This document shows positions 76 through 7,421 of a stretch of DNA of 7,934 nucleotides, in pieces; position 1 is the stretch's first letter, and each line of letters opens with the position of its first letter. The notes below the pieces were generated by a model that saw only the letters and a program-made list of their open reading frames with translations, was not told the DNA's origin and searched no databases. The stretch is from a virus (taxonomy: Monodnaviria; Loebvirae; Hofneiviricota; Faserviricetes; Tubulavirales; Inoviridae), in IMG/VR virus record IMGVR_UViG_2645727945_000001. One strand, written 5' to 3'. The position numbers and the translations under genes were made by a program.

Positions 76-331
76 ATCAGGACTGATGAAAACCGAAGGC
101 CAGTCATCACCAGAATTGCTGTAACCCATCAATTTCATCAACTGGCCACATCAATGCATGGACGACTCACGCCTTGCGTCGTTCGTCTCGATAGCTGCCC
201 TTTAAAAGCGGCCTGGCAGGAAGCGCGTTGCGCTGTCTCCTGCTGCTCTGTAATTTCTCCCTGGCTTCGGCGGTCAGGCAGCTGCATCACATGAAACATC
301 ATCATGCCGCCTTACATGCCGCGTTGCGGCA

Positions 332-2646
<2,315 letters not shown>

Positions 2647-2657
2647 AAATCACCCTC

Positions 2658-2948
<291 letters not shown>

Positions 2949-2962
2949 TCACCACCTGATTA

Positions 2963-4594
<1,632 letters not shown>

Positions 4595-4598
4595 TTCA

Positions 4599-4769
4599 TC
4601 ACCAGTAAAAACTAAATGGTTTTACAATTCGACGGAAATCCTGATCGGCTTTTTCAAGAATAACTGAAACAACATATTCTTCAATGGTTGTATTTTTATT
4701 GTAAATAATTCTTTCTATCTGCTCGATAGTGTATTCTGGCAATTTAACTTTAAATTCTTGAGTAGACAT
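4599..4769 (-). CDS. Small 56-aa hydrophilic protein with ribbon-helix-helix-like pattern (hypothetical)
   Basis: Hand translation: [56 protein letters not shown]; RBS gagg about 5 nt before ATG; stop 4 nt before the pIII-like start; below the ORF-track length cutoff. Confidence 0.4.
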
Positions 4770-4861
4770 AAAACCTCACAAATTAGATTTAAAGCCAATG
4801 ACGCAACATAACCCACAAAGGGAACCAAACATCATAAAAATAAAATCAAACATAAATATCC

Positions 4862-4887
4862 AAAAAAAGGGCGGAATATCCGCCCTT
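4862..4887 (-). terminator. Rho-independent terminator immediately downstream of the major coat gene
   Basis: On the minus strand: GC-rich 7-bp stem (agggcgg / ccgccct, 5-nt loop) followed by a run of 7 T; located 17 nt after the pVIII-like stop. Confidence 0.65.
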
Positions 4888-4903
4888 CCTCATAAAAAAC
4901 AAC

Positions 4904-5152
4904 TCAGATACTTCTGATGGCTCCCCATACTTTACGAACGCCAGCAAAAGTCAGATAAACTGTAACTCCTGCAACACCGATAGAAAGAATAACAGCAGAA
5001 ACAGAAGACATATCAATGCTGTTAGTCAATGATGAAAAATCGACTGTACCAGCAAAAGACGGAGATACAGCAAGAGCAGAAGCAGCGGAAAAAGATAAAG
5101 CTGCAACTTTCTTATCAACACCCTTAAAAAAATTGGTCATTTTTGCAAACAT
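4904..5152 (-). CDS. Major coat protein (pVIII-like) precursor
   Basis: Start chosen at internal ATG 5152 preceded by RBS aaggag (9-nt spacing); 82 aa: leader MFAKMTNFFKGVDKKVAALSFSAASALAVSPSFA, then approx 48-aa mature part with hydrophobic core and basic C-terminus (GVRKVWGAIRSI). Confidence 0.7.
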   Translation of the reverse strand: MFAKMTNFFKGVDKKVAALSFSAASALAVSPSFAGTVDFSSLTNSIDMSSVSAVILSIGVAGVTVYLTFAGVRKVWGAIRSI

Positions 5153-5154
5153 AA

Positions 5155-5328
5155 TTAAAGTCTCCTTATTAAACTCCAAATTGTGGAAATAATCATGCCA
5201 AGAAAAAAACAAAATACTGGCAGTGAAAATCCCGTTAAAAACGCCGAGGAATAAATCCCCGACACATCAGGTATCCCCACGCAAATAGCATTAATTTGCG
5301 TGGAAACTGAATCCGAATTAACAGACAT
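5155..5328 (-). CDS. Small 57-aa hydrophobic protein (possible pVII/pIX-type minor coat analog)
   Basis: Hand translation: MSVNSDSVSTQINAICVGIPDVSGIYSSAFLTGFSLPVFCFFLGMIISTIWSLIRRL; starts 4 nt after the ssb-like stop and ends 2 nt before the pVIII-like ATG; no clear SD; below ORF-track cutoff. Confidence 0.3.
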   Translation of the reverse strand: MSVNSDSVSTQINAICVGIPDVSGIYSSAFLTGFSLPVFCFFLGMIISTIWSLIRRL

Positions 5329-5332
5329 AAAA

Positions 5333-7089
<1,757 letters not shown>

Positions 7090-7173: not shown

Positions 7174-7208
7174 CACCTTCTATTGAAAGGACATAGAGGT
7201 AAATTTTG

Positions 7209-7421
7209 ATGAAAAAAGAAACAAAGCGCGGAGACACAACCGTAAGGATTAACGAAAACAGAAAACTGGAGCTAAAACGAAGAGTGCTGGAAATCGGTAA
7301 TAAAACAGGTGAGCTACTAAAACCATCAGAGATAGTAAACCACTTAATAGACAACTACTTAGATGATGCGGTGAAAGATCTAATAAGCAAAGAAGAACTT
7401 AAGAAAAAAAAGGCAATGTGA
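7209..7421 (+). CDS. Arc/Mnt-like ribbon-helix-helix transcriptional repressor (phage repressor candidate)
   Basis: 70 aa from ATG 7209 (ORF track starts at TTG 7206); RBS agaggt 8 nt upstream; TTVRINENRKLELKRRVLEIGNKTGELLKPSEIVNHLIDNYL matches the RHH beta-strand/helix/turn/helix pattern; divergent from the rep operon. Confidence 0.6.
   Translation: MKKETKRGDTTVRINENRKLELKRRVLEIGNKTGELLKPSEIVNHLIDNYLDDAVKDLISKEELKKKKAM

What the first reader, a model, noticed from the sequence alone, without database searches (positions are those of the whole stretch)
4599..4769. Unannotated 56-aa RHH-like ORF wedged between the coat-gene terminator and pIII
A clean ORF with RBS (gagg) and a 4-nt gap to the pIII-like start sits in a position normally occupied by nothing in Ff-type or CTXphi-type genomes. 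Its sequence (beta-strand-like FKVKLPEY, helix-like [13 protein letters not shown], second helix-like [17 protein letters not shown]) suggests a second small DNA-binding protein. It could be a late regulator or an orphan antitoxin-like module. It is invisible to the 60-aa ORF cutoff.
Basis: partly seen in the sequence, partly recalled or inferred. Interest (0 to 1): 0.5.

Follow-up and report, generated by a model that had tools for sequence, protein, structure and literature searches.

The report
Small RHH-fold gene ahead of pIII
A real 56-codon accessory gene in an E. coli filamentous prophage sits directly in front of the receptor-binding gene III and most likely encodes a small ribbon-helix-helix DNA-binding protein of a family that only this phage group has; its role is still untested.

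The parts
4599..4769 (-). 56-codon ORF ('ORF56', allele A), RefSeq WP_000107046.1 hypothetical protein. Predicted ribbon-helix-helix fold: strand about residues 5-10, helix A 12-25, invariant turn N26-x-T28, helix B from residue 29. Invariant C-terminal tail D42-x-D-F-R-x-(I/V)-V-K-P-F-S-F54.
   Evidence: ORF and annotation; dN/dS 0.23; structure model and fold matches; Arc register; invariant columns; shuffle test.
4774..4777 (-). Shine-Dalgarno GAGG of ORF56, 4 nt before the ATG. It overlaps the TGA stop (4778-4776) of the upstream 25-codon ORF.
   Evidence: Read directly from the sequence. Conserved in L002-L004. The B allele has GTGAGTTTTTATG at the same place.
4598..4603 (-). GGTGAT, the Shine-Dalgarno-like element for pIII, embedded in the last codon and stop of ORF56. 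The pIII ATG (4594) follows 3 nt later, which suits termination-reinitiation coupling.
   Evidence: Read directly from the sequence. In allele B the ORF overlaps the called pIII start by 14 nt.
4776..4853 (-). 25-codon hydrophobic ORF (MFDFIFMMFGSLCGLCCVIGFKSNL), unannotated. It is conserved across the clade between the coat terminator and pIII. ORF56 is inserted between it and pIII.
   Evidence: 5 synonymous and 0 nonsynonymous changes versus L002; dN/dS 0.06 versus allele-B phages; counterparts in Inovirus D_HF5_61 and Dulem virus 52.
4862..4887 (-). Intrinsic terminator after the coat gene: AAGGGCGGA-TAT-TCCGCCCTT plus a run of T.
   Evidence: I9. Conserved in L002-L004 and L017.
3300..4853 (-). 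Deep-divergence cassette: ORF25, ORF56 and the N-terminal (receptor-binding) half of pIII up to the Gly/Thr/Ser-rich linker. It differs between allele-A and allele-B phages at dS of about 2, against 0.13-0.28 in the backbone genes.
2963..4594 (-). pIII-like adsorption protein gene (543 aa), starting 4 nt after ORF56.

Best explanation
ORF56 is a genuine accessory gene specific to this phage lineage and part of the morphogenesis module of this E. coli inovirus.

Expression (inferred from layout). It is transcribed with the genes beyond the coat terminator. It is translated from its own GAGG site right after a conserved 25-codon ORF, and it ends inside the ribosome-binding region of gene III, so translation of pIII is probably coupled to it.

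Protein (inferred from the model and sequence pattern). The product folds as a ribbon-helix-helix domain. As in other RHH proteins, it would dimerise through its N-terminal strand. In that strand F6/V8/L10 would form the core and K7/K9 (R7/Q9 in allele B) would face the DNA. It would bind duplex DNA through the two-stranded ribbon.

Function (my commitment). It most likely acts as a local transcriptional regulator that tunes expression of the operon it sits in: gene III and the assembly genes that follow. The invariant tail DxDFRx(I/V)VKPFSF would serve either dimer-dimer cooperativity or binding of a conserved partner.

Shown: the gene is real and under protein-level constraint; it is linked to the morphogenesis module; an RHH-like fold is predicted. 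Inferred: dimerisation, DNA binding, the regulatory target and the coupling to pIII.
For: Real gene:
- An ORF this long arises in 14 of 5000 shuffles.
- Intact 56-aa variants occur on more than 1200 contigs; only two singleton copies are disrupted.
- A second allele at 46% identity sits in the same slot.
- dN/dS is 0.23 in this frame against 0.87 and 0.60 in the shifted frames.
- In the tail codons synonymous sites are saturated while pN is 0.2.

RHH fold:
- AlphaFold model at pLDDT 71.5 with the expected strand-helix-helix layout.
- Named BFVD top hits are Arc-type, CopG and HicB-RHH proteins and repressors.
- A PDB profile search lists Arc (query 5-40 to Arc 9-44) and KacA in register.
- hhalign against the Arc family gives P = 0.0065, and 3 of 300 shuffled controls reach that score.
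- Allele B's best PHROG hit is 'Arc-like repressor'.
- The invariant P11, N26 and T28 align with Arc P15, G30 and S32.

Local role:
- The ORF travels with the coat-to-pIV module in combination with five different replication or regulatory modules.
- In the IS110/GPA-type prophages it is the only DNA-binding regulator candidate I found.
- It abuts or overlaps the pIII start in both alleles.
Against: - No curated family threshold is met in Pfam, NCBIfam, PHROGs or PADLOC.
- The structure model rests on only 3 sequences and has moderate confidence. The dimer could not be modelled.
- No promoter or operator-like repeat near the gene beats chance, and none is shared by the two alleles.
- The protein is acidic (pI 5.3), more like RHH antitoxins than Arc- or CopG-type repressors. 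That comparison rests on my own knowledge of those proteins.
- The most conserved part is the tail, not the predicted DNA-reading strand.
- Within allele A the few changes run 6 nonsynonymous to 1 synonymous.
- There are no expression data.
Confidence: 0.42

Rival explanations
1. Antitoxin-like adaptor. The RHH domain serves mainly as a dimerisation scaffold, perhaps with autoregulation. The invariant C-terminal tail binds and neutralises or modulates another protein. Candidates are a host toxin or defence effector (an anti-defence 'orphan antitoxin') or a conserved phage protein such as the pI ATPase.
For: - KacA is among the PDB sequence hits.
- The protein is acidic, pI 5.3.
- The tail is the most strictly conserved segment although synonymous sites there are saturated.
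- The gene sits upstream of, and abutting or overlapping, the next gene, as antitoxin genes do.
Against: - No toxin homologue is adjacent. The neighbours are a 25-aa peptide that also exists in relatives lacking ORF56, and the exported pIII.
- PADLOC finds nothing.
- The predicted DNA-facing strand positions stay basic or polar in both alleles, which argues that DNA binding is retained.
- No partner is identified.
Confidence: 0.25
2. Gene III accessory factor that does not bind DNA. In this reading it is a small cytoplasmic protein tied functionally to the N-terminal domains of pIII, with which it co-diverges. It could set pIII dosage through translational coupling, or contribute to superinfection exclusion specific to the pIII type.
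For: - ORF25, ORF56 and the N-terminal half of pIII form one cassette with dS of about 2, against 0.13-0.28 elsewhere.
- The pIII ribosome-binding site lies inside the 3' end of the ORF in allele A, and the genes overlap in allele B.
- The ORF is absent from relatives whose pIII is unrelated at the N-terminus.
Against: - Co-divergence may only reflect where recombination can happen, between the conserved terminator and the repetitive Gly-rich linker.
- The tail is invariant while the pIII signal peptide and N-domains differ, so the tail is not co-evolving with pIII.
- The fold evidence points to a DNA-binding superfamily.
- The junction RNA shows no special structure, z 0.3-0.6.
Confidence: 0.18
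3. Spurious or decaying ORF. On this view it is an open frame in an AT-rich spacer, kept by chance or by constraints on the DNA or RNA, for example gene III expression signals.
For: - The family is tiny and confined to E. coli prophages.
- Some annotation runs skip it.
- Two singleton disrupted copies exist.
- Within allele A the changes run 6 nonsynonymous to 1 synonymous.
Against: - The shuffle test gives p of about 0.003.
- The frame and length are kept at dS of about 2 with dN/dS 0.23 in this frame only.
- The tail shows saturated synonymous change under an invariant peptide, which rules out nucleotide-level constraint.
- The start codon changes ATG to GTG but remains a start.
- There is a good Shine-Dalgarno sequence.
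- The predicted fold is coherent.
Confidence: 0.04

Closest known systems
Arc repressor of Salmonella phage P22 (Arc/Mnt family, Pfam PF03869)
   Same: - Same size class (53 versus 56 aa) and the same predicted strand-helix-helix layout.
- The best named sequence-level match, aligned in register over the whole domain: query 5-40 to Arc 9-44 and 5-39 to 9-43.
- The invariant P11, N26 and T28 fall on Arc P15, G30 and S32.
- The alternating hydrophobic/polar strand matches Arc Q9-F-N-L-R-W14.
   Different: - The similarity is below every threshold: E = 0.62, hhalign P = 0.0065, and no Pfam hit.
- This protein is acidic, whereas Arc is basic (the latter from my own knowledge).
- It carries a 13-residue invariant tail that Arc lacks.
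- It sits in an inovirus structural operon, not an immunity region.
RHH-type type II antitoxins (MazE6/MazE7 of M. tuberculosis, TacA, ParD/PrpA, VapB12, RelB, KacA)
   Same: - The same architecture: an N-terminal RHH followed by a C-terminal extension.
- An acidic protein.
- The gene lies immediately upstream of, and abuts or overlaps, the next gene.
   Different: - No toxin gene is adjacent; the downstream gene is the exported adsorption protein pIII.
- There are no PADLOC or Pfam antitoxin hits.
Ff (M13/f1/fd) gene VIII terminator to gene III region, and the same junction in Inovirus D_HF5_61 and Dulem virus 52
   Same: The order coat gene, strong terminator, gene III, gene VI, gene I, gene IV is the same.
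   Different: - Ff has only a short spacer here (my own knowledge).
- The nearest deposited relatives have only the 24-aa hydrophobic ORF before pIII.
- This lineage has an extra 56-64-codon gene inserted in that slot.
Regulators at the RstR position of integrative inoviruses: CTXphi RstR, YpfPhi YPO2273, and the 71-aa ORF at window 7206-7421
   Same: They are small phage-encoded DNA-binding proteins, and the window's own 71-aa protein also has an RHH-like sequence pattern.
   Different: - Those genes lie divergently next to the replication genes and travel with that module (PMC4266046).
- ORF56 lies in the morphogenesis module and is kept when the early module is swapped.

Membership tests
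Ribbon-helix-helix (RHH / MetJ-Arc) superfamily, fold level | Beta-strand, helix, helix topology in a domain of about 45 residues | tested here: met
   [not shown]
Ribbon-helix-helix (RHH / MetJ-Arc) superfamily, fold level | N-terminal strand with alternating core-hydrophobic and outward polar or basic residues; a turn with a small or Asn residue followed by a Ser/Thr N-cap of helix B | tested here: met
   The strand is F6-K7-V8-K9-L10-P11 in allele A and I6-R7-L8-Q9-I10-P11 in allele B. N26-x-T28 is invariant and aligns with Arc G30-x-S32.
Ribbon-helix-helix (RHH / MetJ-Arc) superfamily, fold level | Obligate homodimer formed by an antiparallel two-stranded ribbon that inserts into the DNA major groove | not testable with these tools
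No multimer or DNA-complex prediction is available.
Arc/Mnt family (Pfam PF03869) and CopG/RHH_1 and related Pfam RHH families | Sequence score above the family's gathering threshold | tested here: not met
   No RHH family appears in hmmscan at E up to 10 for any of 8 members. There is only sub-threshold similarity to Arc: E = 0.62 against PDB and hhalign P = 0.0065-0.014. PHROG 'Arc-like repressor' scores E = 0.035.
Pfam HTH_40 (PF14493) | Score at or above the 27-bit gathering threshold | tested here: not met
   15.3 bits, E = 0.017-0.026, in 5 of 8 members. The fold searches do not support a helix-turn-helix fold.
Type II toxin-antitoxin antitoxin | Operon partner that is a recognisable toxin | tested here: not met
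   The neighbours are the 25-aa hydrophobic ORF, which is also present where ORF56 is absent, and pIII. PADLOC finds nothing.
Type II toxin-antitoxin antitoxin | DNA-binding N-domain plus a C-terminal partner-binding extension | tested here: inconclusive
   The architecture is compatible: an RHH domain plus an invariant 13-residue tail, and the top structural matches are antitoxins. No partner is known, however.
Core inovirus gene set (Ff genes I-XI equivalents) | Present at the same position in related inoviruses | tested here: not met
   It is absent from Inovirus D_HF5_61 and Dulem virus 52, where pIII directly follows the 24-aa ORF. An exhaustive HMMER search of 1.84 billion representatives finds only the two E. 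coli allele groups. It is therefore an accessory gene.

The most novel reading that the evidence does not exclude
ORF56 may be more than an ordinary repressor. It could be a new kind of inovirus accessory module: an antitoxin-like RHH adaptor carried in an exchangeable 'host-range cassette' together with the receptor-binding half of pIII. Its invariant tail would dock onto a conserved host or phage protein, for example a defence toxin or the assembly ATPase. That would link the expression of gene III to counter-defence, superinfection exclusion or control of assembly.
Probability: 0.15. Interest if true: 0.6.

Novelty: new member of a known kind. Interest (0 to 1): 0.33.

Why it matters
Filamentous prophages shape the physiology and virulence of enteric bacteria, yet how temperate inoviruses keep the toxic assembly and adsorption genes (III, I, IV) in check is poorly understood outside Ff and CTXphi.

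A conserved small RHH protein built into the morphogenesis module and coupled to gene III would be a concrete candidate for that control, and it is easy to test. Its invariant tail gives a handle for finding a partner.

The work also shows that this clade carries two tiny genes that routine annotation misses or mislabels: the 25-codon ORF and, in some genomes, ORF56. The 25-codon ORF has been merged into the pIII annotation in at least one deposited phage genome.

If the gene turns out to be a plain autoregulator, the result is a useful annotation and no more.

Tried and rejected
- Megablast of the whole window and tblastn of ORF56 against 50,697 phage records found nothing.
- A genome-contig scan with pI found no confirmed relative.
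- The UPphi and YpfPhi/CUS-1 papers describe different E. coli/Yersinia inoviruses with other structural modules, and neither mentions a gene in this slot.
- The single-sequence AlphaFold model (pLDDT 59.9) gave no usable Foldseek match in PDB, so I replaced it with a 3-sequence model.
- The 1840-aa hit P0006 to the tail region is a low-complexity eukaryote-like protein, so I dismissed it as coincidence.
- I rejected the HTH_40 lead because it is sub-threshold and the fold searches contradict it.
- Promoter and operator search: promoter-like sites are no more frequent than in shuffles. The one inside ORF56 (4705-4676), with an overlapping 10-bp inverted repeat (4653-4662 / 4675-4684), has no counterpart in allele B. 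Twelve inverted repeats per kb is background.
- RNA structure at the ORF56/pIII junction is no better than in shuffles.
- Alternative frames and the opposite strand: a 64-codon frame is open in L002 but closed in the window, and dN/dS there is close to neutral.
- I rejected readthrough or a frameshift fusion to pIII. The frames differ, and the junction varies through G-run indels.
- No dif site was found within 3 mismatches in the window or the 16-kb host stretch, so I make no claim about Xer/dif integration.
- The allele-B segment has no megablast match in the 5,426 complete E. coli genomes; it occurs only in draft assemblies and metagenomes.

Full report
**What the window is**

The 7,934-nt window is one unit of a tandemly duplicated filamentous prophage of E. 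coli. It is 99.9% identical to NZ_CM128597, where the annotated genes repeat with a period of 7,934 nt next to hipBA.

The phage genes run on the minus strand, in this order:
- a replication-initiator gene (5678-6904)
- a pV-like gene (5333-5668)
- a 57-codon ORF (5155-5328)
- the coat gene (4904-5152)
- a terminator
- a 25-codon ORF (4776-4853)
- the ORF in question (4599-4769)
- pIII (2963-4594)
- pVI/DUF2523 (2658-2945)
- Zot-like pI (1588-2646)
- the secretin pIV (332-1591)

A divergent 71-codon regulator-like gene lies at 7206-7421 on the plus strand.

**Checking the observation**

The ORF, its GAGG site (4777-4774), its TGA stop (4601-4599) and the 4-nt gap to the pIII ATG (4594) are as described. 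The pIII Shine-Dalgarno-like GGTGAT (4603-4598) lies inside the end of the ORF. The coat terminator folds at -19.4 kcal/mol with z = -3.3. In this 30%-GC segment an ORF of at least 56 codons arises in 14 of 5000 dinucleotide-preserving shuffles.

Two details of the finding need correction:
1. RefSeq already annotates the ORF, as WP_000107046.1, hypothetical protein. Every source calls it hypothetical. It is skipped in some relatives.
2. It does not directly follow the terminator. A 25-codon hydrophobic ORF lies between them, and that ORF's stop codon overlaps the GAGG.

**Is it a gene?**

A word-seeded search of 5.8 billion proteins and an exhaustive HMMER search of 1.84 billion representatives found only E. 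coli sequences, in two groups. Allele A is 56 aa. Allele B is 58-64 aa and 43-50% identical to A.

Allele B occupies exactly the same slot in related prophages and viral contigs: coat, terminator, 25-codon ORF, small ORF, pIII.

Between the alleles, dN/dS is 0.23 in the annotated frame, with dS of about 2.1. In the two shifted frames it is 0.87 and 0.60.

The last 13 conserved residues, D-x-D-F-R-x-(I/V)-V-K-P-F-S-F, are invariant across 24 distinct sequences, yet the synonymous sites in those codons are saturated. The constraint is therefore on the peptide, not on the DNA or RNA that overlaps the gene III start region. Beyond F54 the C-terminus varies through indels in a G-run at the pIII junction.

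Intact 56-aa variants occur on more than 1,200 contigs, and only two singleton sequences show frame disruption. Within allele A the few differences are 6 nonsynonymous (V/I, I/L, E/Q, A/S) to 1 synonymous. That is too few to interpret, but it does not show strong constraint over short time scales.

**Is it RHH?**

Curated libraries give nothing significant. Pfam shows only HTH_40 at 15 bits against a 27-bit threshold. NCBIfam and PADLOC give nothing, and the PHROG hits have E of 0.03 or worse.

The weak signals all point the same way:
- A profile of the family against PDB lists Arc repressor (E = 0.62, residues 5-40 to Arc 9-44) and the RHH antitoxin KacA (E = 1.7, residues 2-42 to 5-45) among its top five hits, both in register from the strand.
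- hhalign against an Arc-family alignment gives the same register with P = 0.014 to 0.0065. Only 3 of 300 column-shuffled versions of the family alignment score as well.
- Allele B's best PHROG hit is 'Arc-like repressor'.

The sequence pattern fits as well:
- The alternating strand is F6-K7-V8-K9-L10-P11 in allele A and I-R-L-Q-I-P in allele B.
- The invariant N26-x-T28 falls where Arc has G30-x-S32.
- Hydrophobic positions in both helices are conserved.

I put the RHH fold at about 0.75. The dimer, which defines the fold, could not be modelled.

**Context**

The nearest deposited phages are Inovirus D_HF5_61 and Dulem virus 52, with pI about 39% identical. They lack this gene. There the coat terminator is followed by a 24-codon hydrophobic ORF and then directly by pIII. 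ORF56 is therefore an insertion specific to this lineage, lying between a clade-wide tiny ORF and gene III.

The gene stays with the morphogenesis module whatever the early module is. Five early modules were seen:
- the window's replication initiator plus the 71-aa regulator
- an IS110-family transposase with a GPA-type endonuclease (L002-L004)
- a GPA-type endonuclease on a metagenome contig (L021)
- an Ff-type G2P_X_C gene II with a 91-aa ORF (L019)
- G2P_X_C with an HTH_3 repressor (L022)

In the IS110/GPA-type prophages ORF56 is the only regulator candidate I could find.

Between A-type and B-type phages, ORF25, ORF56 and the N-terminal half of pIII form one block of deep divergence. Nucleotide identity there is 77%, 57% and 50-80% respectively, with dS of about 2. 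Coat, pVI, pI, pIV and the C-terminal part of pIII are 93-100% identical, with dS 0.13-0.40. The block is bounded by the conserved terminator and the repetitive Gly-rich linker, so the linkage may reflect where recombination is possible rather than shared function.

**Mechanism**

The best-supported reading is a small dimeric RHH DNA-binding protein. It would be made from the transcript beyond the terminator and translated just ahead of, and probably coupled to, pIII. It would regulate the operon in which it sits, and its invariant tail would provide cooperativity or partner binding. I give this reading 0.42.

A non-DNA-binding gene III accessory role gets 0.18, and a spurious ORF 0.04.

I found no promoter, operator or RNA structure that would decide between these.

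**Novelty and verdict**

No paper in the library describes a gene in this slot. The UPphi and YpfPhi/CUS-1 phages are different, and the one RHH protein reported in an inovirus (PMBT54 ORF13, omega-like) is discussed as a candidate for episome maintenance.

This is a new, sequence-orphan member of a very common kind of protein, in an unusual place. The finding is correct in its essentials and of modest interest.

Noticed in passing
window 4776-4853 (-); L015 6232-6306; L016 6086-6160: There is an unannotated 25-codon hydrophobic ORF (MFDFIFMMFGSLCGLCCVIGFKSNL) right after the coat terminator. All 5 differences from L002 are synonymous, and dN/dS against B-type phages is 0.06. Counterparts sit at the same position in distant gut inoviruses: MLWDFAYFLLGMVCGLVVVLGLNG in Inovirus D_HF5_61, and MTWQMIFFIWGLLCAYVVIRGIDG in Dulem virus 52. 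In D_HF5_61 the annotated pIII start at 6236 runs through this ORF in another frame, and the likely pIII start is the GTG at about 6306. It is probably a tiny membrane or minor-coat protein like pVII/pIX.
   Followed up: partly
window 127-5334 versus L002-L004 (4167-9356); L019, L021, L022: The morphogenesis module, from the 57-codon ORF to pIV, is shared at about 98% identity with prophages whose early module is entirely different: an IS110-family transposase, a 667-aa GPA-type replication endonuclease and a 141-aa protein, inserted next to hcxB/yahK. Other relatives carry Ff-type G2P_X_C gene II modules. This is strong modular mosaicism.
   Followed up: partly
window about 3300-4853 (-): ORF25, ORF56 and the N-terminal half of pIII form a cassette with dS of about 2 between phage types, inside a backbone with dS 0.13-0.28. 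It is bounded by the conserved terminator and the Gly/Thr/Ser-rich linker and looks like an exchanged host-range cassette.
   Followed up: yes
window about 3290-3590 (-), pIII linker: The (TGSG)n / (TG)n repeat linker of pIII varies in length between otherwise near-identical prophages: pIII is 525, 537, 543 or 549 aa.
   Followed up: no
window 7206-7421 (+): A 71-aa basic protein (pI 9.6) is transcribed divergently from the replication genes. It matches phrog_2503 (E = 1.5e-27, function unknown) and shows an RHH-like sequence pattern (TTVRINENRKLELKRRVLEIGNKTG...). It is probably the repressor at the RstR position of this phage.
   Followed up: partly
L001 (NZ_CM128597 269597-285530): The prophage is present as a head-to-tail tandem with a period of 7,934 nt next to hipBA. 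The canonical E. coli dif sequence was not found within 3 mismatches in the window or in this 16-kb stretch, so the attachment site is still unidentified.
   Followed up: partly
L017 910-940 and allele-B proteins P0070-P0087: A G-run at the junction between the small ORF and pIII in B-type phages varies in length. This produces at least six different C-terminal endings after the conserved PFSFDF (GG, GR, GRLL, GGWS, GGGCEIK and others) without affecting the pIII frame.
   Followed up: partly
window 4513-4526 / 4560-4573: There is a 14-nt inverted repeat (86% complementary, 33-nt loop) inside the region of pIII that encodes the signal peptide. The 141-nt RNA around it folds no better than shuffled sequence (z = 0.26).
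   Followed up: partly
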